DNA from: an uncultured bacterium
Lineage (GTDB): Bacteria > Hydrogenedentota > Hydrogenedentia > Hydrogenedentales > CAITNO01
Direction: 5' to 3'
Assembly: GCA_937923585.1 (NCBI GenBank)
Contig: CALDSM010000714.1
Location: 1-45,018 of the forward strand
Length of the DNA stretch: 45,018 nucleotides
This document shows positions 1-15,887 of this stretch, in pieces; position 1 is the stretch's first letter, and the number at the start of each line of letters is the position of its first letter. Position numbers and translations under genes: made by a program. The notes under the pieces are model-generated. The model had not been told where the DNA came from and did no database searches. It was given only the letters and a program-made list of their open reading frames with translations.

Positions 1-1042
1 CGATGAAGACAGCGTCGTATGCCTCGCGGATGTCGTCCACGGGAATGTCAACGCCCACATCCATGCCCGGCCTGAACTCAACGCCCATCTTGCGCATGCC
101 GGAAAGGTCTCTTTCGAGGATGTCCTGCGACAGCCGGTAGTCCGGAATGCCCACGGACAGCATGCCGCCAATGACGGGCAGCGACTCGAACACCGTGACC
201 TTGTGGCCGGACAGCGCCAGAAAATGGGCCGCAGAGAGGCCGGCCGGGCCCGACCCGACAATCGCGACCGACTTGCCGGACGGCTGAATGTCGGCGGGCG
301 GCGTGAATTCGGGAAACAGGTCCATGGCGAAGCGCTTGAGGCCGCGGATGTTGACCGCCTCGTCCACGGCGCCGCGGTTGCACTTCAGCTCGCAGGGGTG
401 GAAGCACACGCGTCCGCAAATGGAGGGCAGCGGATTCTCGCGGTGGATGACCTCGGCGGCCTCCTCGAAGCGGCCCGCGGCGATCAACGCGACGTAGGCC
501 TGCACGCTCGAATCAATGGGGCAGCCGGAACTGCACACCGCGCGCCCCCGCTTGAGAATGACGTTCGCGTTGGGCGCAGCCTGCGCGTACACGCGGTCAA
601 TCGCCTTGCGCGTGCCGATCTGCGCGTCAAACTGGCTCTGCACGGTGACGGGGCACACCGCCGTGCAGTCGCCGCACATGGTGCACTTGTCAATGTCAAT
701 GTAGCGCGGGCGCTGGAGCACCGTGGCCCTGAAATGCCCGGGCTCGCCCTCAAGATTGACCACGTCGCTCATGGTGAGCACGTCAATGTTGGGGTCGCGC
801 ATGCACTCGACCAGTTTGGGCGAGATAATGCAGGTGGCACAATCGCCCGTCGGGAAGGTCTTGTCCAGGCGCGACATGCCGCCGCCCACGGCGGCCTTGT
901 CTTCCACGAGGTAGACGTGGAATCCCGCCGCAGACAAATCAAGCGAGGCCTGAATGCCGGCCACGCCGGCACCGCAGACAAGAACGGAACCGCTGGGCTT
1001 TCCGTTTCCGGCTGCGCTGGCGGGGAGTGAGGATGTTTCCAT
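1..1042 (-). CDS. HdrA-like flavoprotein fused to a GltD/NfnB-like NAD(P)H module (HdrL-type); 3' end cut by the window edge
   Basis: Absent from the ORF track because there is no stop inside the window. Manual minus-strand translation from the ATG at 1042-1040 gives METSSLPASAAGNGKPSGSVLVCGAGVAGIQASLDLSAAGFHVYLVEDKAAVGGGMSRLDKTFPTGDCATCIISPKL..., an HdrA-type FAD fold. It continues with CTMCGDCTAVCP, then ..ENPLPSICGRVCFHPCELKCNRG.. and ..VAIVGSGPAGLSAAHFLA.., which are GltD-type. The start lies 3 nt after the hdrB stop. Confidence 0.8.
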   Translation of the reverse strand, partial: METSSLPASAAGNGKPSGSVLVCGAGVAGIQASLDLSAAGFHVYLVEDKAAVGGGMSRLDKTFPTGDCATCIISPKLVECMRDPNIDVLTMSDVVNLEGEPGHFRATVLQRPRYIDIDKCTMCGDCTAVCPVTVQSQFDAQIGTRKAIDRVYAQAAPNANVILKRGRAVCSSGCPIDSSVQAYVALIAAGRFEEAAEVIHRENPLPSICGRVCFHPCELKCNRGAVDEAVNIRGLKRFAMDLFPEFTPPADIQPSGKSVAIVGSGPAGLSAAHFLALSGHKVTVFESLPVIGGMLSVGIPDYRLSQDILERDLSGMRKMGVEFRPGMDVGVDIPVDDIREAYDAVFI

Positions 1043-1044
1043 GG

Positions 1045-1941
1045 TCATGCCCTTCCACCGGAAGTGCCCGACATTGCGGCGCTCTTGCGGACCAGGGCGT
1101 CCGCGGCCACCGTCAGGGCGTCAAGTCCAAGTTCGGCGGGTTTTAGGCCCAAGGCCAACCCGAGGAACTGGGTGATGTAGACAACGGGAATGTCGGGAAT
1201 CGCGCACCGGCCCCGCTTGGTTTCCGCTTGGCGAAAGTCCAGGTTCAACTGGCACAAGGGGCACGCCACCACAAGGCAGTCGGGGCCCGCGCGCTGGGCC
1301 ATGGACAGAATCCGGAAGCCCAGGCGGCTCACAATGTCGGTCTTGCTGATGGAAAGGCTCGCTCCGCAGCACTCGGTCTTGTACGGCCAGTCCACCGGCT
1401 CGGCGCCCGCGGCCTTCACCAGGTCGTCCATGCAGGTCGGATGTTCGGCGTCGTCGAATGCCACCACCTCCGGCGGACGCGTCAGCAGGCACCCGTAGTA
1501 GGATGCGACCCGCAGGCCCTTGAAGGACGAACGGACCCGCTTTCGCACCTCACGCGTGCCGTAGTCGTTGACCAGCACGTCGAGGATGTGGCGGACCTTC
1601 ACCGAGCCGTCGTAAGGCTTTTCGGTGACGCGCTCCGCGCGCGCCTTCTCGGCTTCATCCTGGTTGACCTTGTGGTTGGCCGTCCGCAGCCGCGCATAGC
1701 ATGATGCGCAGGCCGTCAGCACCTCGGAGTAGCCTGCGGCCTGGGCCTTCTGGAGGTTCATGACGGGGAGCGCCACCGACAGCGAGGCGTTGCTGGAATG
1801 GGCCGGGGTGGACCCGCAGCACACCCAGTCGGGAATCTCTGCCAGCTCGATGCCCAGGGCGGCGCACAGGGTGCGGGTGGACTTGTCAAAGTCCCATGCC
1901 GTGGACTCGAGGCTGCATCCGGGAAAGAATGCGTACTTCAC
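1045..1941 (-). CDS. hdrB: heterodisulfide reductase subunit B-like (two CCG domains)
   Basis: 298 aa with two CCG-type cysteine motifs: FFPGC..WVCCGS..CASC and YYGC..ECCGAS..CPLC. The GTG start overlaps the hdrC stop (GTGA). Confidence 0.85.
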   Translation of the reverse strand: MKYAFFPGCSLESTAWDFDKSTRTLCAALGIELAEIPDWVCCGSTPAHSSNASLSVALPVMNLQKAQAAGYSEVLTACASCYARLRTANHKVNQDEAEKARAERVTEKPYDGSVKVRHILDVLVNDYGTREVRKRVRSSFKGLRVASYYGCLLTRPPEVVAFDDAEHPTCMDDLVKAAGAEPVDWPYKTECCGASLSISKTDIVSRLGFRILSMAQRAGPDCLVVACPLCQLNLDFRQAETKRGRCAIPDIPVVYITQFLGLALGLKPAELGLDALTVAADALVRKSAAMSGTSGGRA

Positions 1942-2498
1942 CGTTTCTTTTCCTCCTGTTCAGCCCGCTTGAAGACCCGGCGCACGGCCTTGCCGTCGGC
2001 GGAGAAGTGGGGCCGGAAGGACAGCTTGCGTTTTGCCAGCATCCGGGGCACCTTGTCCATGTCCGCGAGTAAGTCGCGGCTGGCGATCTTGTAAAGCGTC
2101 ATCATGCCGGCCTCAAACACCCGGCCGTGCCAGCGCACGCTGGTCAGGAAGGCCCGGTTGAAGCTTCTGCCGCGCCGGTCGGTGACGGCAGCCCTGCGCT
2201 CGACGGCCATCATGCGCAGCACGTCCATGACGGCGGCGATGTCTATGCCCATGGGACAGCGCGTGGTGCACGCCTCGCAGGAGGCGCAGGCCCAGATGGC
2301 CTGGGATTCGAGCAGCTCCTTTTCCGAACCCAGATGGATGAGCCGCATGATCTGGCTCGACAGGAGATCCATGTCGGGCCCCACGGGACACCCCACCGAG
2401 CACTTGTGGCATTGCAGGCACGCGCTTACGGGGGAGCCGCTGCGGCGCTCCACCTCTTTCAGCAGCGCGGTGCCGGTCCATTCAAGCGAGTTGTTCAT
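1938..2498 (-). CDS. hdrC: heterodisulfide reductase subunit C-like (2x[4Fe-4S])
   Basis: 186 aa with ferredoxin motifs CLQCHKCSVGCP and CASCEACTTRCP. It starts 6 nt after the upstream gene's stop. Confidence 0.85.
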   Translation of the reverse strand: MNNSLEWTGTALLKEVERRSGSPVSACLQCHKCSVGCPVGPDMDLLSSQIMRLIHLGSEKELLESQAIWACASCEACTTRCPMGIDIAAVMDVLRMMAVERRAAVTDRRGRSFNRAFLTSVRWHGRVFEAGMMTLYKIASRDLLADMDKVPRMLAKRKLSFRPHFSADGKAVRRVFKRAEQEEKKR

Positions 2499-2503
2499 GG
2501 CGA

Positions 2504-5140
2504 TTATTCACCCACCTCTTCGGTTTCTTCCTTCTTGGCCTTTTTGATCGGAACCACCTTCTGGTACACCTGCTCCGGCGACTTGAGGATGCCGTTGACG
2601 GTGAGAAGGTCCCGTTCAATCCGGATGCCGAACAGCCGCTCGTTCTCGCGCAGATAGGGCAGGATCAACTGCCAGTCGTCCGCGGTGAGCGCCGTGTACA
2701 TTGCGCCGTTCAACTGCTCGCTGACCAGCGTGCGGTGCGGGTCGCGCACGTAGATGGCGCCGCCCGAGGCCAACGAAAGCAGGTTGCCGCCGGGATAGGG
2801 CATGTCGAGCGGAATCACGCAGCCGTCTTTGTCGAAGCGGATGCCGTTCACAATCACGAAGCCGCCCCCGTCGAGGGGATCGCCCGCCATGAACGACTCG
2901 GCCATGAAGTCCAGCGCGGTGCCGTTGATGACCACGCGGGGCTTGCCCACCGCGTTGATCAGCGGGCGGCCCGCCGTGTTGCCCATGACGTAAATCGTGC
3001 CGCCCTTCGCGCCGTAGAGGAAGGTCTGGCCGGCGTCGCCGTAGATGACCAGCTTGCCGCGCTTGGTAATCTGGCCGACCTGGTCCTGGGCGTTGCAGTG
3101 GACGTAGGCCTCAAGGCCGTCCATGCCGGAGCCGAGGTAGTCGCCCGGATTGTCGTAACAGTCCACGCGCAGGCTGTCCGTCTTCGGGCCGAATCCGGCC
3201 GCGTGGAAACGCGTGCCGCGCGAGTTGTAGTGGATGAGGTGGCGCCAGCCCAGGTTGTACGCGTCCACCGCGAGGCGGCCGTCACAGTCGTCGCCCTGCG
3301 GCTCGAAACCCCGCGCGTCAATGAGCAGCGCCTTTTCCTCGCCTTTGGGGCCGCGAAGTGCGGAGCGTGTGTCCCGCGTGATGCGCCTGTAGACGCTTTC
3401 ATGCGCGTCGCCGAACAGCGGCTGTTTCGAGAAGATCTCCTCGAGGCCGCGCCGGAGAATCGTGATCACGGCACTGCGCTTCTTCGCACCCGTCGGATAG
3501 CGGTAGTCGGTCAGCCGCGTCAGCACGTCAACGCCCAACTGCGGCATGCGCACTGCTGTCTTCGACGCCACCTCCGACACCGCGTTGCGGAGCCGGTCGA
3601 AATCCATGTCGGCCATGGCGTCGCGCAGGTACAGGTACAGCGCGTCCGCGTCGTTGTCCCGCAGGGCCTTCTCCACCGCCGCCGCGTCGCGGTCGTCCGG
3701 CGTGGTGACCGACACCGGCACGGACAGGTCGCAGTGGAACTGGTCACGCGGCGTGGACACCGGTACGCCGAACTTGTCCGTAGCGAACAGGTTGTAATGG
3801 CCGTTAGTGGGGTCAGGCATGATGTTGAAGAGGAACGCGCCGCCGTCGTTGTAACTGCCCCCGCGGGCATTCCAGTACTGGTCGGCCACGGGCATGAAAC
3901 GCGGGTCCTCGCTGCTCAGGCCGGCCAGCGTCGCGTCAATGGCCTGCTTTTCGGAGCAGATGAGGGCGATGGACGCGTCCCTGCCCTCCTGCAGCGCGAA
4001 CACCTGCGGACGCAGCATGGCCGTGTCCGTGATGCCGAGCAACTGGAAGCCCTTTTTTTGGGCGAGCGTGCGCGCGATGATGAAGAACCACGGGCCGTCG
4101 GGCGATCCGTGAATGTGCGATGCCTGTATCTGGCGGTAGATGCGCTGGCGCTCCGCCGGAAGGCGGTCAAAGTCGAGTTCCGTGGTCGGCGCGAGCGCCT
4201 CGATGATGTACTCCACCGGGTACTTGTACACGCGGTGCATCAGGTCGAAGAGCATCACCGACACCTCGGTGTCCGTCAGAAAGCGCGGGAACAGGCTGCG
4301 CTGCGCCAGGTACTCGCACACGGAGTGGTAGTTGGCAAAGTCGCCGTTGTGTACCAGCGCCTCGTGCATGCCGATGAACGGGTGCGCGCCGCCCGGGTGC
4401 CAGACGCGGCCACGGGTGGGATAGCGCTGGTGCGCGATCCACACATGCGCCTTCACGTCCTCCAGCTTGTAGTACTGGACGGAGGCCTCGGCGAAGCCGA
4501 CGATCTTGATGATGATAAGGTTGCGCGCGTGCGACATGACGAAGGCGCGCTTGTCGCCCAGCGACGCATAGAATTCGTCGTTGAGGTTGGAGGAATTCTG
4601 GAAGACGAACTCGTCCTCGATCTCCTCCTCGGTCAGCGCCTTGAGCCCCTTTTCCTCGGCAAAGCGCTCCAGCACGTCCTTCTTGACGCGCACGAAATAC
4701 CGGGCCACGTCGGGCGGCTTGATCTCAAGCAGCGGCACGTCGCGGTAGTCGTCCACCGTGGGGATAACCCCGCCCTGATAGATCTCGAAGAAGGGCTCGA
4801 TGTACTTCTTCTCGACGGCTTCGCGGGCGGTGGGGTCGAGCAGGGCGATCTGGAGGATGTAGGCCTCGTCGAGCACTTCGCGCGACACGCCCATGTCCTT
4901 CGGGACCAGGCCGCAGGCGGCGATGCCGCCGCCCTTGCCGTTGCCCCGGTTGCGCATCTGAATCGAGGGCTCGTAGATGTGTCTTCCGCCCACGGGAACC
5001 GTGCATGCGAAGCCGGTCACGCCGCATCCGCCCTCCGCCTCGGGCGACTTGACGATCTGGTCGCCTGCGGGGCGCATGTGCGCGCGGGCGCGCATCAGGG
5101 CTTCCACCCGTTGAATGGCCGCGGTATGGACGTCATTCAT
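2504..5140 (-). CDS. glutamate-synthase-like fusion: class-II glutamine amidotransferase (GltB domain 1) + GXGXG domain (GltB domain 3)
   Basis: 878 aa. The N-terminus has an Ntn-amidotransferase pattern (..GGCGVTGF..MRNRGNGKGGGIAACGL..) with the Cys behind a presumed propeptide. The C-terminus has GXGXG beta-helix repeats (KLVIYGDAGQTFLYGAKGGTIYVMGNTAGRPLINAVG..INGTALDF). No FMN domain lies between them. Confidence 0.75.
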   Translation of the reverse strand: MNDVHTAAIQRVEALMRARAHMRPAGDQIVKSPEAEGGCGVTGFACTVPVGGRHIYEPSIQMRNRGNGKGGGIAACGLVPKDMGVSREVLDEAYILQIALLDPTAREAVEKKYIEPFFEIYQGGVIPTVDDYRDVPLLEIKPPDVARYFVRVKKDVLERFAEEKGLKALTEEEIEDEFVFQNSSNLNDEFYASLGDKRAFVMSHARNLIIIKIVGFAEASVQYYKLEDVKAHVWIAHQRYPTRGRVWHPGGAHPFIGMHEALVHNGDFANYHSVCEYLAQRSLFPRFLTDTEVSVMLFDLMHRVYKYPVEYIIEALAPTTELDFDRLPAERQRIYRQIQASHIHGSPDGPWFFIIARTLAQKKGFQLLGITDTAMLRPQVFALQEGRDASIALICSEKQAIDATLAGLSSEDPRFMPVADQYWNARGGSYNDGGAFLFNIMPDPTNGHYNLFATDKFGVPVSTPRDQFHCDLSVPVSVTTPDDRDAAAVEKALRDNDADALYLYLRDAMADMDFDRLRNAVSEVASKTAVRMPQLGVDVLTRLTDYRYPTGAKKRSAVITILRRGLEEIFSKQPLFGDAHESVYRRITRDTRSALRGPKGEEKALLIDARGFEPQGDDCDGRLAVDAYNLGWRHLIHYNSRGTRFHAAGFGPKTDSLRVDCYDNPGDYLGSGMDGLEAYVHCNAQDQVGQITKRGKLVIYGDAGQTFLYGAKGGTIYVMGNTAGRPLINAVGKPRVVINGTALDFMAESFMAGDPLDGGGFVIVNGIRFDKDGCVIPLDMPYPGGNLLSLASGGAIYVRDPHRTLVSEQLNGAMYTALTADDWQLILPYLRENERLFGIRIERDLLTVNGILKSPEQVYQKVVPIKKAKKEETEEVGE

Positions 5141-5154
5141 GGTTCGTGTTGTCC

Positions 5155-6702
5155 TCAGGTTTCACTCTCGTAATCGAGATGGGTCATCAGGTCGGTGCGT
5201 CCGCGCAGGGCAGCCACGGAGTCCAGGCCCAGCCGGTAAAGAATGTCCACCAGCATTTCCCGCCAGGCGGTGTACAGGTTCACCAGCCGCTGCGTGCACC
5301 AGTCAACGGTGATCATTTCGAGCAACCCGGAGTCTGTGGTGCAGATGCCGCGCGGGCAGCCGCGCCCGCTTTCGCAGCAGCCGCAGCGGATGCATTCCAG
5401 CGCCACGAGCTCCGCCGTGCCGATGACCACGCCGTCGGCGCCGAGCGCGATGGCCTTGGCCACGTCGAAGGGGGTGCGGATGCCGCCGCTGGCGATGAGT
5501 GTGATCTCGTCGCGGACACCCTCGTCGGAAAGGAAGCGGTGGCAGGCGTTGATGCCGTACTCAATCGGCATGGCGATGTTCTTCTTGGCGATGTTCGGGG
5601 CCGCGCCCGTCCCGCCGTAGCTGCCGTCGGTGTGTACAATGTGCGCGCCGGCGCAGTACACCCCCACGGCCACCATGTCCACGTCGCCGGGGGTCGAAAC
5701 CTTGGCGGAGAGGAGCGCGCGCGGGTTGATGTGGGCGATCCAGTCCAGGTGCTTCTTGTGGTCCTCGATCGAGTACACGCTGTGGAACGGGAACGGCGAG
5801 AACAGCGAGGTGCCAACCATGGCCTCGCGCATGGCGGCCACTTCGGGCGTGTTCTTGTCGCCCAGCAGGTGGCCGCCGAGACCGGGCTTGGCGCCCTGGG
5901 CATACTTGAACTCGACGATGCGGGCCCGCGCGATGGTCTCCTCGCGCACGCCGAACAGCCCCGTGGCCACCTGGGTAATCATGTGGTCCGCATAGGGGAT
6001 CATGCGTTCGGGGTAACCGCCCTCGCCGGTGCAGCTGAACGAGTTCCACGCCTTGGCGACGCGCGCCTTGGCCAGCAGGGCACGGATGTTGGTCGAGCCA
6101 AACGACATGCCGCCGCCGTACCAGGGCACGTCAATCTTGACCTTCGGGCGGTTGTCGTTGCGGCGGTTCAGGAGCAGTTCGGTGCAGATGTCCTCGCGTC
6201 GCAGGTCCTTCGGGGTCGTTTCGGGATAGACGAAACGGAGCTTGTCGAATCCGCCGCCGGAGCCGCCCACTTCGCACTCCAGGTGCGCGGGAGGACGCTG
6301 GCCGGTCTCGGCCATCGCCCAGGTGCTCGCAAGGAGGTCCGGAGTCCACCGGCAGTCGCCCATGGTCGCGAACGCGGGGTTCTCGGAAAGGGACAGCGCG
6401 CCGGACGGGCACGCCGATATGCAGTAGTGGTCCGTCTTCTGGCAGTCGAGCCCGATGCAGCGGTAGTCGAAGGGACGCATCGGGAGCTTGTAGCCGGCGG
6501 GGCGCTTGTGAACGCCGTAGGGGCACAGGCTCACGCACTTGCCGCAGGCGGTACACTGGGAGTCGCGGTGGACGCGGAACTTGCCCAGTTCGTTGCGGTA
6601 GCGCGGCGGCGCGGGATGCACCTCACGGCGCACTTCCGCGTGGTGCGGGTTGGCCAGGAAGTCCTCCGCCGATTCCGGCGGGGCGGGCGTAATCGTGCTC
6701 AT
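5155..6702 (-). CDS. ferredoxin-domain + glutamate synthase FMN (GltB domain 2) subunit
   Basis: 515 aa with CTACGKCVSLCP and CQKTDHYCISACP motifs. The canonical GltS TIM-barrel signatures follow: KYAQGAKPGLGGHL, TDGSYGGTGAAP, ASGGIRTPFDVAKAIALGADGV and CIRCGCCESGRGCPRGICT. Confidence 0.8.
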   Translation of the reverse strand: MSTITPAPPESAEDFLANPHHAEVRREVHPAPPRYRNELGKFRVHRDSQCTACGKCVSLCPYGVHKRPAGYKLPMRPFDYRCIGLDCQKTDHYCISACPSGALSLSENPAFATMGDCRWTPDLLASTWAMAETGQRPPAHLECEVGGSGGGFDKLRFVYPETTPKDLRREDICTELLLNRRNDNRPKVKIDVPWYGGGMSFGSTNIRALLAKARVAKAWNSFSCTGEGGYPERMIPYADHMITQVATGLFGVREETIARARIVEFKYAQGAKPGLGGHLLGDKNTPEVAAMREAMVGTSLFSPFPFHSVYSIEDHKKHLDWIAHINPRALLSAKVSTPGDVDMVAVGVYCAGAHIVHTDGSYGGTGAAPNIAKKNIAMPIEYGINACHRFLSDEGVRDEITLIASGGIRTPFDVAKAIALGADGVVIGTAELVALECIRCGCCESGRGCPRGICTTDSGLLEMITVDWCTQRLVNLYTAWREMLVDILYRLGLDSVAALRGRTDLMTHLDYESET

Positions 6703-6708
6703 TCGCGT

Positions 6709-8094
6709 CTATACTCCCTCTTTGCGCCTGCCGAACAGGCGGCCGAAGGTCGCGGCTTCCAGGTCTTCAAAGAACATGGCGCGGCCCGTCTCGCCGCGCA
6801 GGCGGCGCACCTCGCGGATGCCCATCGCGCCGAGCATTTCAAGCAGCTGGTTGATCCACGCGCCCATCATGTTCACGATGCGCTGCGTGCCGTAGGACTC
6901 CTCGAAATCCTCCAGGCGCACCGGGCACATCTCGCCGTCGGCGCACTCGCCGCAGAGGCGGCATTCAAGCGCAATCATCAGCGGCAGGTCTATGGCCACA
7001 AGGTCCGCGCCGCAGATGATGGCCTTGGCCACGTGCTCGGCCTGCGCGATGCCGCCCGACGCAACCAGCGTCACCATGTCGCGCACGCCCTCTTTCACGA
7101 GCGCGCGGTGGATTTCCCGCAGGCAGTCCTTCATGTGGCGCGAGCCCGTCTCGGCGAATTCGCGCCCGTGCGGGTCAAACACCAGGTGGACCACTTCAGC
7201 GCCGTCCTTGGTCAACTGGCACACCTGCTTCGCGGCATCCGGCGTCACTTCGAGACGGATGGACACGAGGCGGTTCGGATTCTCTCCCTTGACACGAGTC
7301 TGGATCTCAATAACGTTCTCGCTGTAGGGCACCATAATCATCGGGGCCGCGGTCCGGCCAACGGCGTTCCCTTCGTACAGCGGGATGGCATAGCCGCCGT
7401 CGGGCGACACCCCTTCCGGCATGTTGTCGGCGTCCATCACGAACAGCGTGCCCAGGGTCGCCGCCGCCTTGGCAATGGCGCGGGTCACCGCGCCGCGCTG
7501 GAACCGCGCGGGAACGGCGTCAAAGATGATCGGTATGGGGATTTCCATCAGCGGCGACGGCGTGAACGCCATCTGCCCGTTGGTGAACGAGAGATTGCGC
7601 AGCTTGCGGCCGATGTCCACGCTGGTGCTGATGTATTCGCGGCCGTGAATGCCGTCGCGCGTGGGCCGCACGATTTCCGACATGTCGGTCCACATCGAGT
7701 CGAAGTCGGGGCCGGAGAAGGGGCCGCCGTATCCGGCGCCCGACACGGGTATGCCGCCCGTCTCGGCCTGATACCAGTTCGACATGATAATGTCGGGCGT
7801 ATAGTAGGCATCGCCGAGGCGCTGGTATTCCGGGTTCTCGATGCGCGTCAGGATGCCCTTGGTGCAGTTCTGCACGCAGAGCAGGCAACCCTTGCACTGG
7901 TATATGTAGTCGAGGTAGCCGAGTTCGTCGTGCAGCGCGTCGGCTTCCTTGCGGTAGAACCCGTACACGCAGGCACGTTTGACGCAGTTGTGGCAGCTTG
8001 AGCAGTCCTCGCGCCAGTCCACAATGCCGAGCTTGCCCACGGGCCGCTGGTGGGGCGGCGCGGGCTTCGTGTGAATGTGATATTTGGCGGGCAC
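6709..8094 (-). CDS. divergent paralogue of the ferredoxin + GltB-domain-2 subunit
   Basis: 461 aa with CSSCHNCVKRAC and CKGCLLCVQNC motifs. The C-terminal half resembles its neighbour (ASGGIAQAEHVAKAIICGADLVAI, ECRLCGECADGEMCP), but I cannot find QGAKPG or GGTGA equivalents. The GTG start lies 2 nt after the metF stop. Confidence 0.7.
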   Translation of the reverse strand: MPAKYHIHTKPAPPHQRPVGKLGIVDWREDCSSCHNCVKRACVYGFYRKEADALHDELGYLDYIYQCKGCLLCVQNCTKGILTRIENPEYQRLGDAYYTPDIIMSNWYQAETGGIPVSGAGYGGPFSGPDFDSMWTDMSEIVRPTRDGIHGREYISTSVDIGRKLRNLSFTNGQMAFTPSPLMEIPIPIIFDAVPARFQRGAVTRAIAKAAATLGTLFVMDADNMPEGVSPDGGYAIPLYEGNAVGRTAAPMIMVPYSENVIEIQTRVKGENPNRLVSIRLEVTPDAAKQVCQLTKDGAEVVHLVFDPHGREFAETGSRHMKDCLREIHRALVKEGVRDMVTLVASGGIAQAEHVAKAIICGADLVAIDLPLMIALECRLCGECADGEMCPVRLEDFEESYGTQRIVNMMGAWINQLLEMLGAMGIREVRRLRGETGRAMFFEDLEAATFGRLFGRRKEGV

Positions 8095-8096
8095 GG

Positions 8097-8984
8097 CTAA
8101 CGGGCCTCCAATCCTGACTTTTGAATGATCTCAAGGACGGCGTCTTCGTCGCCGTCGGCGTAAATCTCAAAACCGCGCAGCCCCTTTAGCGCGGAAAGCT
8201 GCTTGATCGTCTCCACCGCCATGTCAATGCCGACGGCGCGCTGCGCGGTCTTGTCACCCGCGGCGGCAAGGCGGTCGAGCATGGCCTGCGCCACCGACGG
8301 CACCGGCTTGGCCGCGGCGAAGGCTTTGGCCTCCTCCGCGTCGAGCAGCGGCTGGATGCCGGCCAGCACCGCCGTTTTCTCCGGAAGCCCGCGCAGCGCG
8401 GCAGCTTCCCACCACGCCTTGAAGCGCGCCACGTCGAAGACCGGCTGCGTGATCAGGAACTGCGCACCCGCCGAGGCCTTCTTCGCCGTCTTGATGAGCT
8501 GCATTTCCTGCGGGTCCGCAAAGGGAGACGCCGTTCCGCCGACGCAGACTTTCGCGGCGGCATCGTCGTCCTGCTTCGCCAACGCGGCGATCAACTGCAC
8601 CGAGTCAATGTCGTACACGTTCTTGGCCTGCGGGCAGACGCCCAGCGTCTGGTGCGTGCCGCTGGTGCACAGGATGTTGCGGATGCCCAGCGCCTGCGCG
8701 CCCAGGCAGCTTGCCAGCAGCGCCGCGCGGTTGCGGTCGCGCGTGACCAGGTGCATGATCGGCTCGACACCCTCCGCCGCCACCAGCGCCGCGGCGGCCA
8801 GCGACGACATGGACACGCCGTGCCGGTTGTCGCCCACCCCCAGTGCGTGGACTTTGCCCGCGAACTTCTTCGCGGTCGCCCGCACCGGCGCGGGATCGCC
8901 GCTTTTCGGCGTGGTAATCTCGACCACCAGGAGCGGTCCGCCCGAGCCTATCTTTGCCTGGAACCTGCTTTCACTTTCAGTCAT
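8097..8984 (-). CDS. metF: methylenetetrahydrofolate reductase (MetF family)
   Basis: 295 aa with MTHFR-like blocks (..VEPIMHLVTRDRNR.., ..NILCTSGTH.., ..AQFLITQPVFD..). ATG at 8984-8982. Confidence 0.8.
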   Translation of the reverse strand: MTESESRFQAKIGSGGPLLVVEITTPKSGDPAPVRATAKKFAGKVHALGVGDNRHGVSMSSLAAAALVAAEGVEPIMHLVTRDRNRAALLASCLGAQALGIRNILCTSGTHQTLGVCPQAKNVYDIDSVQLIAALAKQDDDAAAKVCVGGTASPFADPQEMQLIKTAKKASAGAQFLITQPVFDVARFKAWWEAAALRGLPEKTAVLAGIQPLLDAEEAKAFAAAKPVPSVAQAMLDRLAAAGDKTAQRAVGIDMAVETIKQLSALKGLRGFEIYADGDEDAVLEIIQKSGLEAR

Positions 8985-9093
8985 GGCCTTCTACCTTTGC
9001 AGTGTTTCCGTATGAGCGCCGCGCATCATCAAAGACGCACCGGCTTCGTCTTTCTATCTCCGTCCTGCTACAACCAATCTTGATTCTTTGTTC

Positions 9094-9124
9094 TCAATTG
9101 TCAATTGTCAACTGTCAATTGTCA
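9094..9124. repeat. tandem heptamer (TCAATTG)x4.4; one copy reads TCAACTG
   Basis: Read directly: tcaattg tcaattg tcaactg tcaattg tca. It covers the mvhD stop codon (9108-9110) and the last 5 mvhD codons. Each perfect unit contains the palindrome CAATTG. Confidence 0.95.
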
Positions 9125-9518
9125 GGGGGCTTTCGCCCAGCGCGCACAGTTTGCTCACTTCGGCGCGGATCATGCCTTCAAGGTCATCCTGCGGCCCGCA
9201 GTGGACCAGCACGGCCCGCTCAGACTCCATCCCGATTTCCGACAGCAGCCGCTGGACCGTCTTGACGCGCATCTCCGCGCGGTAATTGCCCTGCGCAAGA
9301 TGGCAGTCGCCCTTGGGGCACGTCACCACCAGCAATCCCCGCGCGCCCCCCTCAACCGAGTGGAAGAGATACTGCGCGTCGGTCTTGCCGCTGCACGGGA
9401 GTTCAAGGGTGCGGACATGGACGCCGTCTTCGGTCCATTGGCGCGGCACGCGCGTGCCCGCGGGGATGCATTGGTGGCAAATGAACACCAAAATCTCGGA
9501 CTGGAGGGTTTCGCTCAT
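9108..9518 (-). CDS. mvhD: methyl-viologen-reducing hydrogenase delta subunit-like (MvhD/FlpD) electron-transfer protein
   Basis: Pattern ILVFICHQC..LELPCSGK..LLVVTCPKGDCH. ATG at 9518; the ORF-track start at 9527 is a GTG three codons upstream and cannot be excluded. Confidence 0.85.
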   Translation of the reverse strand: MSETLQSEILVFICHQCIPAGTRVPRQWTEDGVHVRTLELPCSGKTDAQYLFHSVEGGARGLLVVTCPKGDCHLAQGNYRAEMRVKTVQRLLSEIGMESERAVLVHCGPQDDLEGMIRAEVSKLCALGESPLTIDS

Positions 9519-9628
9519 CGTCTTCACTCTCTGTCGTTGCGCGCAAAAGAGTATGCCAACCCGTCAAGTTATGCGCCGGGGGTTCTATGGGCCGTCCTGC
9601 GGAGAGAATAACTCAAGGTTGCGCTGAA

Positions 9629-9658
9629 AGTATAGCCGAAATCCTACCTTCCTGTCTA
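9629..9658 (-). promoter_or_regulatory. candidate sigma70-type promoter for the mvhD-hdr operon
   Basis: The minus strand reads TAGACA-18 nt-TATACT (plus-strand tgtcta 9653-9658, agtata 9629-9634), about 100 nt upstream of the mvhD start. Sequence match only. Confidence 0.25.
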
Positions 9659-10268: not shown

Positions 10269-10952
10269 ATGTCCAATGAGCTAACACCGGAACTCATCGA
10301 GAAACTGCTTTCCGTGGACAGCCCGACGGTGTCAAACGCGATTGAGCGTTTTAAGGTGCGGCCGCGCCGCGAGGGGTTTATGGGCCCGCAAATTCAGTGC
10401 CGCTTCCCCGACCTCGGCCCGGTGGTCGGCTATGCCACGACCTGCACCATCGTCGAGTACGACGAAGCCTTTCCGCCCGACCCGGTCGAGCGGTTCAAAT
10501 GGGTCGAGTCCATCGCGAAATCGCCCAAGCCGTGCGTGTGCGTCGTCAAGGACATGTGCCACCGCAAGGGCTGGTATTCGCACTGGGGCGAGATCGTGGG
10601 AACGCAGGTGCAGGTGCTGGGTGCCTCGGCCATCATCACCGACGGCGCAGTGCGCGACCTGGAGGCGCTGCGCGCCATGGGCATGAAGGTGTGGAGCGAG
10701 CACGTGGTCGTGTCCCACGGCCACATTGACGTGGGCCAGGCGGACATCCCCATCGAAGTGGGCGGGCTGGTGGTGAATCCCGGCGATTTGCTCCACGCGG
10801 ACTGCAACGGCGTGGTGGCGATTCCGCCGGAGGTGCTGGGCAGGCTTGCCGAGGCCATTGATGCGGTGCTCGACAATGAGCGCAAGACGCTGCACCACCT
10901 GCGTACCGAGGGTTACGACCTAGAGGCGCACCGCAGGCAGATCGAGCACTAG
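10269..10952 (+). CDS. RraA-family protein (RraA / 4-hydroxy-4-methyl-2-oxoglutarate aldolase-like)
   Basis: 227 aa with ..SPTVSNAIE.., ..IITDGAVRDLEALRAMG.. and ..GDLLHADCNGVVAIP.. blocks typical of the RraA fold. AAGGAGA Shine-Dalgarno lies 7 nt upstream of the ATG. Confidence 0.75.
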   Translation: MSNELTPELIEKLLSVDSPTVSNAIERFKVRPRREGFMGPQIQCRFPDLGPVVGYATTCTIVEYDEAFPPDPVERFKWVESIAKSPKPCVCVVKDMCHRKGWYSHWGEIVGTQVQVLGASAIITDGAVRDLEALRAMGMKVWSEHVVVSHGHIDVGQADIPIEVGGLVVNPGDLLHADCNGVVAIPPEVLGRLAEAIDAVLDNERKTLHHLRTEGYDLEAHRRQIEH

Positions 10953-11050
10953 GCGGAACGGCTGAGCCACGGTGGCAGGCGGAACGCCTGCGGTAGGAGA
11001 CGGCCACCGCCTGCAGTGCCTGAGATGAGCGGCTGTGTGTGTTCCTATTC

Positions 11051-12907
11051 TCAGGCCTCGCCGTAGTCGGGTGCCGCGAAGCCGGGCGCGTCGGCCGAGA
11101 TGTCCACACCGGCGCGCGTGTAAATGCGCAGACCGAGAACCCGGTACGTCCTGCGAAGTGCCTCGAACAGCACGACGACGGCGCACAGCATAATAATCAC
11201 CGTCAGCGTCACGTTCACATAGCCCAGCACGACTTCCCCGGGTTTGTATATCCGCGGCAGGAAGTTGTCGAAGATGTTCCGCCAGCCCGCGTACAGTGTC
11301 GTCACCACCAGGAAGGCCAGCGGCAGCACGGTCACCCAGACATAGCGCGCGCGGCCCGCGTTGATGAGCGCGGTGGTCGCGACGGTCAGCGCCACGGCCG
11401 CCAGCAGTTGGTTCGCCGTGCCAAACATCGGCCAAATGGTGGCCACGCTGCCGCTCCAGATGAAGTAGCTCCAGGCGCCCACCACCAGCCCTGTGGATAT
11501 GAGCGAGCCCGGCACCCAGTTGGTCTTCTCAAAGGGCTTGTAGAACTTGCCGATGAATTCCTGCACCAGAAACCGTGCCACCCTCGTGCCCGTGTCAATC
11601 AGCGTCAGGATGAACAGCGCCTCGAACATGATTATGAAGTGGTACCAGTAGGACATGAGGTGCTTCATGCCGGGCAGCGCCGAGAAGATTTGCGCGCAGC
11701 CGACGGCCAGCGAAACGGCCCCGCCGGTGCGGCCCTCCACCTTCTCGCCGACTTGCGCCGAGAGGGTGTCGAGATTGACCGTGGCCATGTTGAGCGTCGC
11801 GAACTTTTCCGGCGCGGCGTTGATGGCGAAGTAGTCGCCGGGGTGCAGCGAGCAGGCCGCGATCAGCGCGATAATGCTGACGATGCATTCGGTGACCATG
11901 GCCCCGTAACCGATCATCCGGATGTCGCTTTCCCTGGAAATCATCTTGGGCGTCGTGCCCGAGCCGACCAGCGCGTGAAATCCGGAAATGGCGCCGCAGG
12001 CGATCGTGATGAACAGGAACGGGAACAGTTTGCCCGGCACCACCGGCCCGCCGTGGCTCATGAAGTCGGTGTTGAAGGCCGGCATCTTGAGGTCGGGATG
12101 CACGGCGATGACGCCGACAACAAGAATCGCAATGGTCCCGATCTTGAGATAGGAGCTGAGGTAGTCGCGCGGGCACAGCAGCATCCACACCGGCAGCACG
12201 GACGCGATGAACCCGTAGGCGGCAATGGCCAGGCAGACTCCGTTGGGCGACAGCGAGAAATACGGATGCAGCGCCGAACCCGGCACGTAGTGGCCCAGCA
12301 CCACCGCCGCCAGCACGCCGGTGACGCCGATGGCGCTCGCCTCCACAATCTTGCCGGGCCGGATCTTATACATCCACAGGCCCGTCAACAGGGCCATGGG
12401 AATGGTCATCGCAATGGTGAAGGTACCCCAGGAGCTTTCCGACAGTGCCATGACGACCACCTTGCCCATGCCTGCCAGCACGACAATGATGATGATCAGG
12501 ATGGACAGCGAGGCGATTGCCCCGGCCATGGGGCCCACCTCGCCGCGGGCGATCTCGGCCAGGGATTTTCCCTGCCGCCGCACGGACAGCGTCAGGATCA
12601 TCATGTCATGCACGCCGCCCGCCAGCACGGCGCCCACCAACATCCACAGCAACCCCGGCGCATAGCCGTACTGCGCCGCGAGCACGGGACCGATCAGCGG
12701 CCCGGCACCGGATATCGCCGCGAAATGATGGCCGAACAGGACATACTTGTTCGTCGGATGGTAGTTCGTGCCGTCCCGCATCGCATAGGACGGCGGGGTT
12801 CGCCGGTCATCCAGCGCCAGCACCTTGGCCGCGATAAATGCGCTGTAATAACGGTACGCGAGGGAAGTCACCAGCAACGCCATCAACACAATCGGAACCG
12901 CGTTCAT
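11051..12907 (-). CDS. cstA: carbon starvation protein A (CstA family peptide/pyruvate transporter)
   Basis: 618 aa, polytopic. The N-terminus [45 protein letters not shown] is the conserved CstA signature. Confidence 0.9.
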
Positions 12908-13091
12908 GTCAACACCTCAGTGGCAGGCCTACCCGTCCGGCCATGGTTTGAGGGAGAGGCGGCCCGTTCCTCCGTTGCCACAAAGTACTTCGGCAGTCCG
13001 GGCACCGCCAGACTCCAGTCTTTAACATTTATATCATATCAGCAATAGCGGCAATTTTCAGAATTCGCGCCTTTTCGGCGCTTACACAGGT

Positions 13092-13124
13092 GTGGCGTGG
13101 TCAAGAAACCACGCCACAACGAAG
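13092..13124. repeat. hairpin element, copy A (10-bp stem GTGGCGTGGT/ACCACGCCAC + tail AACGAAG)
   Basis: gtggcgtggtcaagaaaccacgccacaacgaag. Near-identical to 15888-15919 in the same orientation. Lies 43 nt downstream of the stop of the 381-aa island gene. Confidence 0.9.
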
Positions 13125-13166
13125 AATCCAATCACACCGGATGATTTCTCCAAGAATGGCACTCCG

Positions 13167-14312: not shown

Positions 14313-14406
14313 GTTGTCACCACTCCAATATCAGCCGTACCCCAAAACTTTATGGCTACACTTACGCCATTATCAACCTCAGGTAACCGACGTATTAGGG
14401 GCGGCC

Positions 14407-15750: not shown

Positions 15751-15887
15751 GTCCACTTCCTCCTCCAGATTCGCTTGCTTAACGACACTATCCTCAACGC
15801 TTACGGCAAGCAGCCATGCCCGACCGAACCCGTCGTCGCTGGCACAATCCACGTGCATCCCTGAGCAGGAGACCTGCGGTCGAAAGA

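What the first reader, a model, noticed from the sequence alone, without database searches (positions are those of the whole stretch)
1..9527. Eight-gene coupled operon joining HdrA(L)BC/MvhD to a split glutamate synthase and a MetF: candidate undescribed electron-bifurcating complex
Seen: the minus-strand order is mvhD, metF, Fd-FMN', Fd-FMN, GATase-II+GXGXG, hdrC, hdrB, hdrA/gltD fusion. From metF onward, the stop-to-start junctions are -4 to +14 nt (8097/8094, 6709/6702, 5155/5140, 2504/2498, 1938/1941 overlap, 1045/1042). That spacing argues for one transcript and stoichiometric assembly. Established: HdrABC plus MvhD is the flavin-based electron-bifurcation core of methanogens, and a MetF(V)-HdrABC-MvhD complex is known from acetogens. 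GltD-like modules feed NAD(P)H electrons to GltB and to Nfn. Inference: the three catalytic parts of GltB (amidotransferase, FMN barrel, GXGXG) are all present here but split or fused in an unusual way. Their natural beta-subunit (GltD) is grafted onto HdrA, and a MetF is co-encoded without any MetV-like ORF in the 123-nt mvhD-metF gap. I know of no characterised enzyme with this composition. It could be a bifurcating or confurcating glutamate synthase, a methylene-THF reductase, or both sharing one Hdr module.
Basis: partly seen in the sequence, partly recalled or inferred. Interest (0 to 1): 0.78.

Follow-up and report, generated by a model that had tools for sequence, protein, structure and literature searches.

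The report
Hdr- and MetF-linked split glutamate synthase
The window holds the first eight genes of a widely conserved ten-gene operon that wires a split, glutamine-dependent glutamate synthase to a MetF/MetV folate reductase and an NADPH-binding heterodisulfide-reductase-type electron module, an enzyme complex found in many uncultured anaerobes that I could not find described or tested.

Summary
Eight co-directional minus-strand genes sit at the stated coordinates with -4 to +14 nt junctions, and every domain call was confirmed by HMMs.

The window cuts the operon. In every orthologous locus with enough sequence, hdrL is followed by a second mvhD and a metV, so "no MetV" is an edge artefact.

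Comparison of 97 related loci shows an invariant core of MvhD plus three Glt proteins:
- p461, a catalytically dead Fe-S/FMN-barrel paralogue;
- p515, the FMN synthase;
- p878, an Ntn-amidotransferase fused to GXGXG.

MetF/MetV nearly always accompany this core. HdrCBA is facultative. The NAD(P)H module on HdrA is exchangeable: NfnB/GltD-like insert, NuoEFG-like insert, or none.

Hdr-less variants sit beside glnA, amt, glnD and carAB, so the trio is a real GOGAT. Its catalytic residues are invariant.

MetF in the window's clade has lost the Asp120 equivalent, so its folate activity is uncertain.

Best reading: one NADPH-fed, Hdr-type glutamate synthase complex that probably couples energy. The direction of MetFV and the coupling partner are unresolved. 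No description was found in ten literature searches.

Verdict: new variant of known kinds. Interest about 0.7.

The parts
9629..9658 (-). sigma-70-like promoter candidate (TAGACA-18-TATACT) about 100 nt upstream of mvhD1
   Evidence: This is a consensus match only.
9108..9527 (-). mvhD1: MvhD/FlpD-type [2Fe-2S] electron-transfer subunit, 139 aa
   Evidence: Pfam FlpD, 77.8 bits. Five conserved Cys are seen directly in the translation. An MvhD gene precedes the glt genes in all 47 loci where this could be judged. It is the fastest-evolving subunit together with MetF.
8985..9107 (-). 123-nt mvhD1-metF spacer. It carries a second promoter-like site (9111-9083), and the TGTCAATTG-type palindromic/direct repeats at 9090-9125 overlap it and run into the end of mvhD1.
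   Evidence: The repeat is not found in any of the 97 related loci.
8097..8984 (-). metF: MTHFR-fold flavoprotein, 295 aa. The Glu28 equivalent (E22, codon 8919-8921) is kept. The Asp120 equivalent is Thr110 (codon 8655-8657).
   Evidence: Pfam MTHFR, 92.9 bits. Closest NCBIfam model is the MTHFR domain of YitJ-type proteins. Aligned to T. thermophilus MTHFR. Family alignment of 52 sequences. Codons checked.
6709..8094 (-). p461: non-catalytic paralogue of the GltS FMN subunit. It has an N-terminal 2x[4Fe-4S] domain, a (beta/alpha)8 barrel with SGGIA...GAD, and an ECRLCxxC...C cluster loop. It lacks the AQGAKPGxGG substrate loop. Proposed electron-entry adaptor.
   Evidence: AF2 barrel at residues 155-425 has pLDDT mostly above 80. 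Foldseek places it among FMN TIM barrels and GltS alpha. Never absent where judgeable. Natural p461::p515 fusions exist.
5155..6702 (-). p515: catalytic glutamate synthase FMN subunit. It has 2x[4Fe-4S], an FMN barrel with AQGAKPGLGG at residue 268, and an Fe-S loop ECIRCGCC...C at residue 436.
   Evidence: Pfam Glu_synthase, 1e-84. Aligns to A. brasilense GltB residues 879-1170 at 1e-48. Motif positions.
2504..5140 (-). p878: class-II (Ntn) glutamine amidotransferase with a 38-residue propeptide and catalytic Cys39 (codon 5024-5026), a variable linker, and a C-terminal GXGXG beta-helix domain.
   Evidence: EAEGGCGVTGF, HQRYPT.GR, HNGDFANY and LTDTE are invariant in 36 relatives from the window's own clade and in 14 that also include the 57%-identical L006 paralogue.
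1938..2498 (-). hdrC: 2x[4Fe-4S] subunit, 186 aa. It overlaps hdrB by 4 nt.
   Evidence: Pfam Fer4_8/17 and NCBIfam CoB_CoM_SS_C, 4e-17.
1045..1941 (-). hdrB: two CCG domains (CCG at residues 41 and 191), the site of the non-cubane clusters in methanogen HdrB.
   Evidence: Pfam CCG x2. Full-length alignment to solved HdrB chains at 3e-46. CCG positions.
1..1042 (-). hdrL, first 347 codons only (truncated by the window edge). It contains the HdrA thioredoxin-reductase FAD domain start, the first half of the inserted ferredoxin domain, and then the NfnB/GltD-like insert (Fer4_20 plus FAD Rossmann).
   Evidence: Full-length orthologues are 1514-1524 aa.

Best explanation
These are the first eight genes of a ten-gene operon. 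A second mvhD and metV follow hdrL beyond position 1. The operon encodes one multi-subunit iron-sulfur flavoprotein complex.

Its invariant catalytic heart is a split, glutamine-dependent glutamate synthase:
- p878 self-processes to expose Cys39, hydrolyses glutamine, and supplies the GXGXG scaffold.
- p515 forms 2-iminoglutarate and reduces it on FMN.
- p461, a catalytically dead paralogue of p515, keeps its Fe-S sites and barrel. Together with MvhD it forms the wire through which electrons enter.

In the window's version the reductant is NAD(P)H, probably NADPH. It is oxidised on the NfnB/GltD-like module inserted into the ferredoxin domain of a tandem HdrA (HdrL). Electrons pass the HdrA flavin and MvhD to the synthase. 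They also connect to MetF/MetV (the methylene-/methyl-THF couple) and to HdrCB.

NADPH to GOGAT leaves roughly 200-250 mV unused, and a complete, strongly conserved Hdr bifurcation core has been recruited where a simple GltD would do. I therefore commit to flavin-based energy coupling. Glutamate synthesis, and methylene-THF reduction where MetF is competent, would be the exergonic branch that drives reduction of a low-potential partner, most likely ferredoxin.

Shown: gene order, domains, catalytic residues, conservation, modular variants, nitrogen-assimilation context.

Inferred: physical complex, electron path, NADPH specificity, bifurcation and its partner.
For: Domains and residues:
- HMM confirmation of all eight proteins.
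- p515 aligns to the GltB FMN domain, including the substrate loop and Fe-S cysteines.
- The p878 catalytic tetrad is invariant in 36 and in 14 relatives.

Co-inheritance:
- The same order recurs in loci labelled Hydrogenedentota, Planctomycetota, Sumerlaeota, Binatia and Desulfobacterota.
- p461, p515 and MvhD are never absent where this can be judged.
- Natural p461::p515 fusions exist.

GOGAT role. Hdr-less variants lie beside nitrogen-assimilation genes:
- GlnA (547 bits, above the cut-off), GlnD, Amt and CarA in L064.
- glnA and carAB in L093.
- Amt follows a type A cluster in L010.

NAD(P)H port:
- The NfnB/GltD-like insert splits the inserted ferredoxin domain.
- A NuoE-NuoF-NuoG-like module sits at the same point in other lineages.
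- The motif GGGNTAIDAAR...YRR is present in nine orthologues.
- PMC12054007 independently proposes NAD(P)H use by such HdrA.

Hdr core: HdrB aligns full length with both CCG motifs, and HdrL matches solved HdrA at 1e-182.

Conservation ranking shows selection on all subunits.

E0' of methylene-THF is -200 mV.
Against: - No biochemical or expression data exist.
- The site where HdrA normally reduces ferredoxin is the one occupied by the NADPH module. The second HdrA half lacks an inserted ferredoxin domain. No ferredoxin exit is therefore evident, and PMC12054007 argues that ferredoxin is excluded there.
- All flows from NADPH to GOGAT and to methylene-THF are downhill, so coupling is not required.
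- Some close relatives carry a plain HdrA with no NAD(P)H module (L003, L005). Others lack HdrCB (L018, L029, L030, L040, L085) or lack Hdr altogether.
- MetF and MvhD1 evolve fastest.
- MetF has Thr in place of the Asp120 equivalent.
- Complex formation could not be modelled because no multimer prediction was available. The single-chain p878 model was poor.
- The GOGAT midpoint potential I use is my own rough estimate.
Confidence: 0.4

Rival explanations
1. Methyl-THF is the electron donor. MetF oxidises methyl-THF (-200 mV). Electrons enter through MetV and MvhD exactly as hydrogenase electrons do in Mvh-Hdr. The HdrA flavin then bifurcates them: uphill to NADP+ through the NfnB-like module at the low-potential exit, and downhill to the glutamate synthase as the high-potential acceptor. 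In Hdr-less type B clusters the enzyme would simply be a methyl-THF-dependent GOGAT.
For: - This model maps best onto the solved Mvh-Hdr wiring. MvhD marks the donor entry and the inserted ferredoxin domain marks the low-potential exit.
- The module in front of p461 is an exchangeable flavoprotein dehydrogenase. In L097 and L096 it is a GlcD-like FAD 2-hydroxyacid dehydrogenase plus a GlcF-like dicluster, fused to p461 and followed by p515 and p878. From general knowledge, enzymes of that family act as oxidising donors at about the same potential as methyl-THF.
- Type B MetF keeps the canonical LSGDHQ motif.
- The potentials are roughly symmetric: -320, -200 and about -60 mV.
Against: - It needs a stoichiometric supply of methyl-THF for nitrogen assimilation. 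The hosts are not known methylotrophs or acetogens, and no Wood-Ljungdahl or methyltransferase genes are in the window.
- At physiological glutamate levels the GOGAT couple is less positive, so the driving force becomes marginal (my estimate).
- The window's clade has lost the Asp120 equivalent in MetF, and MetF is among the least conserved subunits.
- Plain-HdrA variants would have to push electrons from -200 mV up to ferredoxin, which is infeasible.
Confidence: 0.2
2. A non-bifurcating NADPH-dependent anabolic reductase hub. HdrL, MvhD and the Fe-S proteins are only a wire that distributes NADPH electrons downhill to the glutamate synthase and to MetFV. HdrCB is a further thiol/disulfide output or a relic.
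For: - All transfers from NADPH are exergonic.
- The input module is freely exchanged or absent, and HdrCB is dispensable in some lineages.
- No ferredoxin site is evident on HdrL.
- Both GOGAT and MTHFR are universal anabolic needs, which fits the wide host range.
Against: - Nature already has a far simpler NADPH wire for GOGAT, namely GltD.
- A roughly 1500-residue tandem HdrA plus HdrCB, kept at 65-75% median identity across the clade, is hard to justify as a passive conductor.
- From general knowledge, every characterised HdrABC-type complex couples energy.
Confidence: 0.2
3. Two separate enzymes that merely share an operon: a Moorella-type MetFV-HdrABC-MvhD methylene-THF reductase, and an independent ferredoxin-dependent archaeal-type glutamate synthase (MvhD1-p461-p515-p878).
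For: - Each part exists on its own elsewhere. The 6-subunit MTHFR is characterised in Moorella.
- MvhD-p461-p515-p878 clusters without MetFV or Hdr occur in L067, L093 and L094.
- There are two MvhD genes, one for each putative enzyme.
- A possible internal promoter lies in the mvhD1-metF gap.
Against: - The glt genes are interleaved between metF and hdrC, with metV at the far end. The MTHFR genes are therefore split by the GOGAT genes, with 2-14 nt junctions.
- The order is conserved at 50-90% identity in 32 of 53 judgeable loci.
- MetFV stays glued to the glt genes even when Hdr is absent, in 12 type B loci and in L095.
- The trees of p878 clades track the cluster architecture.
Confidence: 0.15
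4. The Glt-like trio is not a glutamate synthase. It would be a related amidotransferase/imine-reductase such as an N-methylglutamate-synthase-like enzyme, linked to one-carbon metabolism through MetF.
For: From general knowledge, N-methylglutamate synthase is built from the same three domain types and feeds C1 units to folate. Proximity to MetF invites a C1 link.
Against: - p515 keeps the GltS 2-oxoglutarate/iminoglutarate loop and an Fe-S wire for external electrons. N-methylglutamate synthase needs no net electrons.
- No gmaS or mgd genes are nearby.
- The neighbours in variants are canonical GlnA (above the equivalog cut-off), GlnD, Amt and CarAB.
- The best family matches are glutamate synthase models.
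Confidence: 0.05

Closest known systems
MetFV-HdrABC-MvhD methylene-THF reductase of Moorella thermoacetica (6-subunit type)
   Same: It has the same six subunit families. The sub-order hdrC-hdrB-hdrA-mvhD-metV matches the distal half of the full operon. MetV carries the NGPCGG motif (PMC8515935). HdrB keeps both CCG motifs.
   Different: - Three glutamate-synthase genes and a second mvhD are interleaved.
- metF is moved to the front, away from metV.
- HdrA is a tandem protein with an NfnB/GltD-like NADPH module.
- No Wood-Ljungdahl genes are nearby.
- MetF lacks the Asp120 equivalent in this clade.
Glutamate synthase: bacterial NADPH-GltBD and the split 'archaeal-type' GltS
   Same: The amidotransferase, FMN synthase and GXGXG domains are all present with their catalytic residues. 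Variants sit in a nitrogen-assimilation context.
   Different: - The domain layout is GATase+GXGXG on one chain and Fd+FMN on another.
- No central domain was detected.
- There is an extra dead paralogue (p461) and an MvhD subunit.
- There is no free GltD.
- Electrons arrive through Hdr/MetFV-type modules.
HdrL (Desulfobacterium autotrophicum) / type III HdrA (ANME-1, Bathyarchaeota)
   Same: HdrA with a GltD-family NAD(P)H domain inserted in the inserted ferredoxin domain, followed by mvhD (PMC2702500; PMC12054007).
   Different: Here it is a tandem of two complementary HdrA halves. It sits in an operon with GOGAT and MetFV genes. The described HdrL and type III genes sit with dsr, mvhADG or other hdr genes.
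NfnAB / NfnSL transhydrogenase
   Same: The insert is most similar to NfnB/NfnL, the subunit that carries the bifurcating FAD and two [4Fe-4S] clusters.
   Different: There is no NfnA/PyrK-like partner. The module is embedded in HdrA.
Predicted F420-dependent glutamate synthases of methanogens and ANME (FrhB-linked GltS)
   Same: The same idea of a split GltS given a non-GltD electron-input module (PMC9012536).
   Different: The input there is an FrhB-type F420 module. Here it is MvhD/MetFV/Hdr. Those are also uncharacterised.

Membership tests
Glutamine-dependent glutamate synthase (GOGAT) | Ntn (class II) amidotransferase domain with an N-terminal catalytic Cys plus the Arg, Asn-Gly and Asp of the glutamine site | tested here: met
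   p878 has Cys39 in EAEGGCGVTGF, R239, N265-G266 and D290. All are invariant in 36 relatives from the window's own clade and in 14 that also include the 57%-identical L006 paralogue, and they align to GlmS. Removal of the 38-residue propeptide is assumed, not tested.
Glutamine-dependent glutamate synthase (GOGAT) | FMN (beta/alpha)8 synthase domain with the 2-oxoglutarate/iminoglutarate loop and an Fe-S cluster cysteine loop | tested here: met
   p515: Pfam Glu_synthase, 285 bits. It aligns to A. brasilense GltB 879-1170, including AQGAKPGxGG and the Cys loop. p461 fails this feature because it has no substrate loop.
Glutamine-dependent glutamate synthase (GOGAT) | C-terminal GXGXG beta-helix domain | tested here: met
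   p878 residues 646-816: Pfam GXGXG, 45 bits against a cut-off of 32.5.
Glutamine-dependent glutamate synthase (GOGAT) | Central domain, and a separate GltD beta subunit (bacterial NADPH type) | tested here: not met
   No Glu_syn_central hit in any window protein. The only GltD-family module is inserted in HdrA. The window is therefore not a GltBD-type enzyme, although it works like a GOGAT.
Glutamine-dependent glutamate synthase (GOGAT) | Catalysis of 2-oxoglutarate + glutamine + 2e- to 2 glutamate | not testable with these tools
   Only indirect support: GlnA, Amt, GlnD and CarAB neighbours in variant loci.
MetFV-HdrABC-MvhD methylene-THF reductase (6S type) | MetF with the MTHFR fold and the catalytic Glu28 and Asp120 equivalents | tested here: inconclusive
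   The fold is met (92.9 bits). Glu is invariant. Asp120 is replaced by Thr110 in the window and by T/S/N in most of its clade, while type B keeps Asp. E. coli numbering and residue roles are from memory of the literature.
MetFV-HdrABC-MvhD methylene-THF reductase (6S type) | MetV (PF12225, NGPCGG) encoded with MetF | tested here: inconclusive
   Not in the window, because it would lie beyond position 1. It is present right after hdrL-mvhD2 in every orthologous locus that extends far enough. Median identity is 82%.
MetFV-HdrABC-MvhD methylene-THF reductase (6S type) | HdrA (FAD), HdrB (two CCG), HdrC (2x[4Fe-4S]) and MvhD | tested here: met
MetFV-HdrABC-MvhD methylene-THF reductase (6S type) | Association with Wood-Ljungdahl pathway genes or acetogenic physiology | tested here: not met
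   No such genes are in the 45-kb window. The neighbours are CstA, Opp transporter, peptidase M3 and similar. The rest of the genome is unknown.
HdrL / type III HdrA | GltD/NfnB-family NAD(P)H-FAD module inserted between the two cluster motifs of the inserted ferredoxin domain of HdrA | tested here: met
   In the window, CTMCGDCTAVCP is followed by Fer4_20 and a Rossmann fold. Orthologues show the insert at 169-648, and the plain variant L005 shows the uninterrupted domain.
NfnAB transhydrogenase | NfnB-like subunit paired with an NfnA (PyrK-like, [2Fe-2S], FAD) subunit | tested here: not met
   An NfnB-like module is present. No NfnA-like gene is in the operon or its relatives.
N-methylglutamate synthase (MgsABC) | Three Glt-like domains without an external electron wire, clustered with gmaS and mgd genes | tested here: not met
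   p515 and p461 carry ferredoxin domains and Fe-S loops. The neighbours are canonical GlnA above the equivalog cut-off, not GmaS, and there are no mgd genes.

The most novel reading that the evidence does not exclude
This would be a previously unrecognised, widespread class of glutamate synthase. A dead GltB paralogue (p461) plus MvhD act as a universal socket for exchangeable electron-donor modules: MetFV, a GlcD-like dehydrogenase, or HdrA with an NfnB-like or NuoEFG-like port.

In the Hdr-containing form, the large free energy of glutamate synthesis would be harvested by flavin-based electron bifurcation. That could take either of two forms:
- NADPH to GOGAT plus ferredoxin;
- methyl-THF to GOGAT plus NADP+.

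This would be the first case of nitrogen assimilation itself serving as the exergonic branch of an Hdr-type bifurcation. It would also give a physiological partner reaction to the long-puzzling MetFV-Hdr module.
Probability: 0.3. Interest if true: 0.88.

Novelty: new variant of a known kind. Interest (0 to 1): 0.7.

Why it matters
GOGAT is the main entry of nitrogen into biomass. Only NAD(P)H- and ferredoxin-dependent forms have been characterised.

This family is large. More than 7,600 relatives scored at or below the E-value thresholds used (1e-10 for p878, 1e-5 for p461) among a capped 8,000 candidates. Homologues of p461, which at the weaker thresholds include p515-type paralogues, span 267 to 947 clusters at 50% identity. 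The hosts are labelled as Hydrogenedentota, Planctomycetota, Sumerlaeota, Binatia, Syntrophorhabdales and Syntrophales, from sediments, peat and digesters.

If electrons really reach GOGAT through Hdr/MetFV modules, three things follow:
- Nitrogen assimilation in energy-starved anaerobes would be tied to energy conservation and to one-carbon metabolism.
- Metabolic models of these uncultured phyla would assign the wrong reductant to GOGAT and MTHFR.
- The unresolved question of what the MetFV-HdrABC-MvhD complex couples to would become testable in a new, self-contained operon.

Tried and rejected
- AF2 of p878 with 36 close homologues gave mean pLDDT 59, and below 50 over the catalytic regions. 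I did not use it. The two fold-search jobs that remained after the p461 PDB search were left unused.
- AF2 of p461 was usable only for the barrel. The ferredoxin domain was not modelled.
- A sigma-54 promoter search, as a link to NtrC control, gave 23 matches against 26.6 expected. None lay upstream of the operon.
- The TGTCAATTG repeat at the mvhD1 stop is absent from all 97 related loci. I dropped it as a conserved operator.
- The genome-contig scan with a single protein returned only 9 close relatives.
- I looked for a cultured host through long contigs and cluster names. No named isolate was found. Labels such as Bathyarchaeia or Nitrospirales on 76-80% identical copies may be binning errors.
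- The idea that p461 is the missing GltS central domain is rejected. Its profile aligns to the second half of the FMN domain (GltB 975-1165), not to the central domain.
- The 277-aa ORF after metV in L004 has no family hit and overlaps an opposite-strand GH38 gene. I treated it as spurious.
- Ten literature searches and thirteen papers turned up no description of a glt-metF-hdr cluster.

Full report
**1. Observation**

The ORF listing and my translations give eight co-directional minus-strand genes:
- mvhD, 9108-9527
- metF, 8097-8984
- p461, 6709-8094
- p515, 5155-6702
- p878, 2504-5140
- hdrC, 1938-2498
- hdrB, 1045-1941
- an hdrA-like gene starting at 1042 and running off the window (347 codons)

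The spacers are 123, 2, 6, 14, 5, -4 and 2 nt, exactly as reported. GC3 is 0.81-0.89 in all of them.

Pfam and NCBIfam confirm every domain call:
- mvhD: FlpD.
- metF: MTHFR.
- p461: ferredoxin domain plus partial Glu_synthase.
- p515: ferredoxin domain plus a full Glu_synthase match (1e-84).
- p878: GATase_6 (just under the Pfam cut-off) plus GXGXG.
- hdrC: HdrC-type dicluster.
- hdrB: two CCG domains.
- hdrA/L: HdrA N-terminal part followed by Fer4_20 and a GltD-type Rossmann fold.

No promoter-like site lies inside 1-9000, and terminator-like hits are at or below the shuffle expectation. Promoter-like sites lie upstream of mvhD and in the mvhD-metF gap.

**2. The operon is longer than the window**

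In the closest relatives, mostly Hydrogenedentota MAGs with 72-84% identity for p878, the same order is found.

The hdrA-like gene there encodes a 1514-1524 residue protein. It is followed by a second, stronger MvhD (FlpD, 168 bits) and by a MetV (PF12225, with NGPCGG).

The full unit is mvhD1-metF-p461-p515-p878-hdrC-hdrB-hdrL-mvhD2-metV. Its distal half has the Moorella order hdrCBA-mvhD-metV (PMC5861303 and PMC8515935).

**3. Anatomy of the proteins**

*p878.* It has a 38-residue leader and then EAEGGC39GVTGF. It also has HQRYPT.GR, HNGDFANY and LTDTE, which are the Cys/Arg/Asn-Gly/Asp set of Ntn amidotransferases. These align to GlmS and are invariant in 36 and in 14 relatives. Residues about 440-640 are variable. 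A GXGXG domain follows.

*p515.* It aligns to A. brasilense GltB 879-1170. The alignment includes AQGAKPGxGG and the cluster cysteines.

*p461.* It is a full-length paralogue of p515 at 28% identity. It lacks the substrate loop. It keeps two ferredoxin motifs, SGGIA...GAD, and an ECRLCxxC...C loop. Its profile matches GltB 975-1165. Its AF2 barrel is confident and resembles FMN TIM barrels and GltS alpha.

*HdrB.* It aligns end to end with solved HdrB and has both CCG motifs.

*HdrL in orthologues.* It is a tandem of two complementary HdrA halves.
- Half 1 has the FAD domain and the inserted ferredoxin domain. That domain is split by an NfnB/GltD-like insert (residues 169-648). The insert scores 322 bits against NfnB and 252 bits against GltD.
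- Half 2 has the N-terminal domain, the FAD domain and the C-terminal ferredoxin domain, but no inserted ferredoxin domain.
- The NAD(P)H Rossmann motif reads GGGNTAIDAAR...YRR in nine orthologues. From my knowledge of GltD and NfnB this suggests NADPH.

This protein type is already named HdrL (PMC2702500) or type III HdrA (PMC12054007).

*MetF.* The Glu28 equivalent is invariant in 52 family members. The Asp120 equivalent is Thr110 in the window and T/S/N in most of its clade. Hdr-less relatives keep LSGDHQ. E. coli numbering and residue roles are from memory.

MetF and MvhD1 are the least conserved subunits (median 54-55% identity). MetV (82%) and p515 (77%) are the most conserved.

**4. Comparative genomics**

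The p878 and p461 families are very large. More than 7,600 sequences scored at or below the E-value thresholds used (1e-10 for p878, 1e-5 for p461), out of a capped 8,000 candidates each. An exhaustive p461 search found 947, 583 and 267 representatives of 50%-identity clusters at E ≤ 1e-3, 1e-10 and 1e-30.

Source labels include Hydrogenedentes, Thermoguttaceae, Pirellulales, Sumerlaeota, Binatia, Thermodesulfobacteriota, Syntrophorhabdales and Syntrophus.

I collected 97 loci and mapped the ten proteins onto the 94 held at that stage; L095-L097 were read from their gene tables. Where the flanks allow a judgement:
- p515, p461 and an upstream MvhD are never missing (67, 60 and 47 loci).
- MetF is present in 55 loci and absent in 3.

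Architectures among the 53 fully judgeable loci:

| Type | Content | Loci |
|---|---|---|
| A | MetF + HdrCB + HdrA | 32 |
| A' | MetF + HdrA, no HdrCB | 5 |
| B | mvhD-metV-metF-p461-p515-p878, no Hdr | 12 |
| C | mvhD-p461-p515-p878 only | 3 |

The remaining locus is the first, tandem glt trio of L006, which groups with type B only because the neighbouring cluster's metF lies just downstream of it.

A further type D was found through the exhaustive p461 search. A GlcD-like FAD dehydrogenase plus a GlcF-like dicluster is fused to p461 and followed by p515 and p878. Natural p461::p515 fusions also exist.

Within type A the NAD(P)H port varies:
- an NfnB/GltD-like insert;
- a NuoE-NuoF-NuoG-like module split into the same point of HdrA;
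- no insert at all (L003, L005).

A crude NJ tree of p878 tracks these architectures.

**5. Context**

- Type B locus L064 is flanked by carA, canonical GlnA (TIGR00653, 547 bits against a cut-off of 429), GlnD and Amt.
- Type C locus L093 reads glnA-GATase-mvhD-p461-p515-p878-carA-carB.
- A type A locus, L010, is followed by Amt.
- The window's own neighbours are an RraA-like protein, CstA, an Opp-type transporter, peptidase M3 and a C-N hydrolase. There are no Wood-Ljungdahl genes.

Together with the invariant catalytic residues, this makes the trio a real glutamine-dependent glutamate synthase. It argues against an N-methylglutamate-synthase-like role.

**6. Mechanism**

*What is shown.* There is a co-inherited set of Fe-S flavoproteins. 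The invariant part is GOGAT plus a dead paralogue plus MvhD. The front end is exchangeable.

*What I infer.* p461 and MvhD form the electron socket of the synthase. In the window's version NADPH enters through the NfnB-like module of HdrL. MetFV and HdrCB are further terminals on the same wire.

*Reference potentials.*
- NAD(P)H: -320 mV (textbook).
- Methylene-/methyl-THF: -200 mV.
- 2-oxoglutarate + glutamine / 2 glutamate: about -60 mV at standard state. This is my own rough estimate from about -50 kJ/mol for the NADPH reaction. It would be less positive at high glutamate.

*Three modes fit these data.*
- (a) NADPH bifurcation, with GOGAT (and MTHFR) as the exergonic branch and ferredoxin as the endergonic one.
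- (b) Bifurcation of methyl-THF electrons to NADP+ and GOGAT. This matches the Mvh-Hdr wiring best and is echoed by the GlcD-like donor front end of type D. It needs an implausible methyl-THF supply, and it conflicts with the loss of Asp120 in this clade.
- (c) Plain downhill distribution without coupling.

I commit to (a) at 0.4. The reason is that a complete, well conserved Hdr core has been recruited where a GltD would suffice. The weakness is that the usual ferredoxin exit is the very place occupied by the NADPH module. Modes (b) and (c) get 0.2 each. Separate enzymes sharing an operon gets 0.15, and a non-GOGAT function gets 0.05.

**7. Comparison with known systems and novelty**

Each part belongs to a known family: split or archaeal-type GltS, 6-subunit MetFV-HdrABC-MvhD, HdrL/type III HdrA, and NfnB.

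The combination, the p461/MvhD socket and the set of exchangeable front ends were not found in ten full-text searches, nor in the thirteen papers I opened with paper reading. Subscription-only literature was not searchable.

I rate it a new variant of known kinds, with interest about 0.7.

**8. Caveats**

- All hosts are MAGs. Some taxon labels (Bathyarchaeia, Nitrospirales) on near-identical clusters may be binning errors.
- L003 and L015 are near-duplicates, as are L093 and L094.
- Counts come from a capped, identity-ranked sample, not a census.
- No multimer modelling, expression data or biochemistry was available.

Noticed in passing
L097 10001-17867 (NCBI GCA_050942695.1) and L096 264-4690: A 'type D' glutamate-synthase cluster. 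A GlcD-like FAD-linked dehydrogenase plus a GlcF-like 2x[4Fe-4S] domain is fused to a p461-like domain (1176-1218 aa). It is followed directly by p515-like and p878-like genes, with no MvhD, MetFV or Hdr. This suggests a 2-hydroxyacid-driven GOGAT.
   Followed up: partly
P0364, P0391, P0415 (from the p461 exhaustive search): Natural single-chain fusions of p461-like and p515-like proteins (about 730-990 aa). This is Rosetta-stone evidence that the dead and the catalytic FMN subunits contact each other.
   Followed up: partly
L006 10-5062 and 5374-20408: One contig (Deltaproteobacteria HGW-15 label) carries two glt trios in tandem. A divergent p461/p515/p878 set (49/65/57% identity) sits immediately upstream of a complete type A ten-gene cluster.
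   Followed up: partly
L018, L029, L030, L040 (downstream of metV, e.g. L018 20025-22592): Type A' clusters lack hdrC/hdrB between p878 and hdrA. They are followed by a second, divergent hdrC-hdrA-like set (33-49% identity).
   Followed up: no
window 9090-9125: A dense TGTCAATTG-type palindromic and direct repeat overlaps the mvhD1 stop codon and a promoter-like TTGACA-17-AAGAAT site. It is not found in any related locus, so it is a local feature of unknown meaning.
   Followed up: yes
window 12001-16000: A low-GC patch (0.55-0.56, against about 0.64 elsewhere). It holds a 381-aa protein with an NADase-translocation F5/8 type C domain (13167-14312) and a 501-aa ORF with no Pfam match (14407-15912). 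It may be horizontally acquired.
   Followed up: no
window 27024-31862: An ECF-type sigma factor with a long C-terminal extension (543 aa) is followed by a 1063-aa protein that combines F5/8 type C and hydrazine-synthase-alpha middle domains.
   Followed up: no
window 31891-35568 (-), 38690-40618 (+): The 1225-aa ORF at 31891-35568 was not scanned against any family library. The 642-aa ORF at 38690-40618 gave no Pfam hit at E ≤ 1e-5. The function of both is unknown.
   Followed up: no
window 10269-25470: The operon's neighbours point to a peptide-using heterotroph: an RraA-like protein, CstA, Opp-type ABC permeases and binding protein, oligoendopeptidase F (M3) and a C-N hydrolase.
   Followed up: partly
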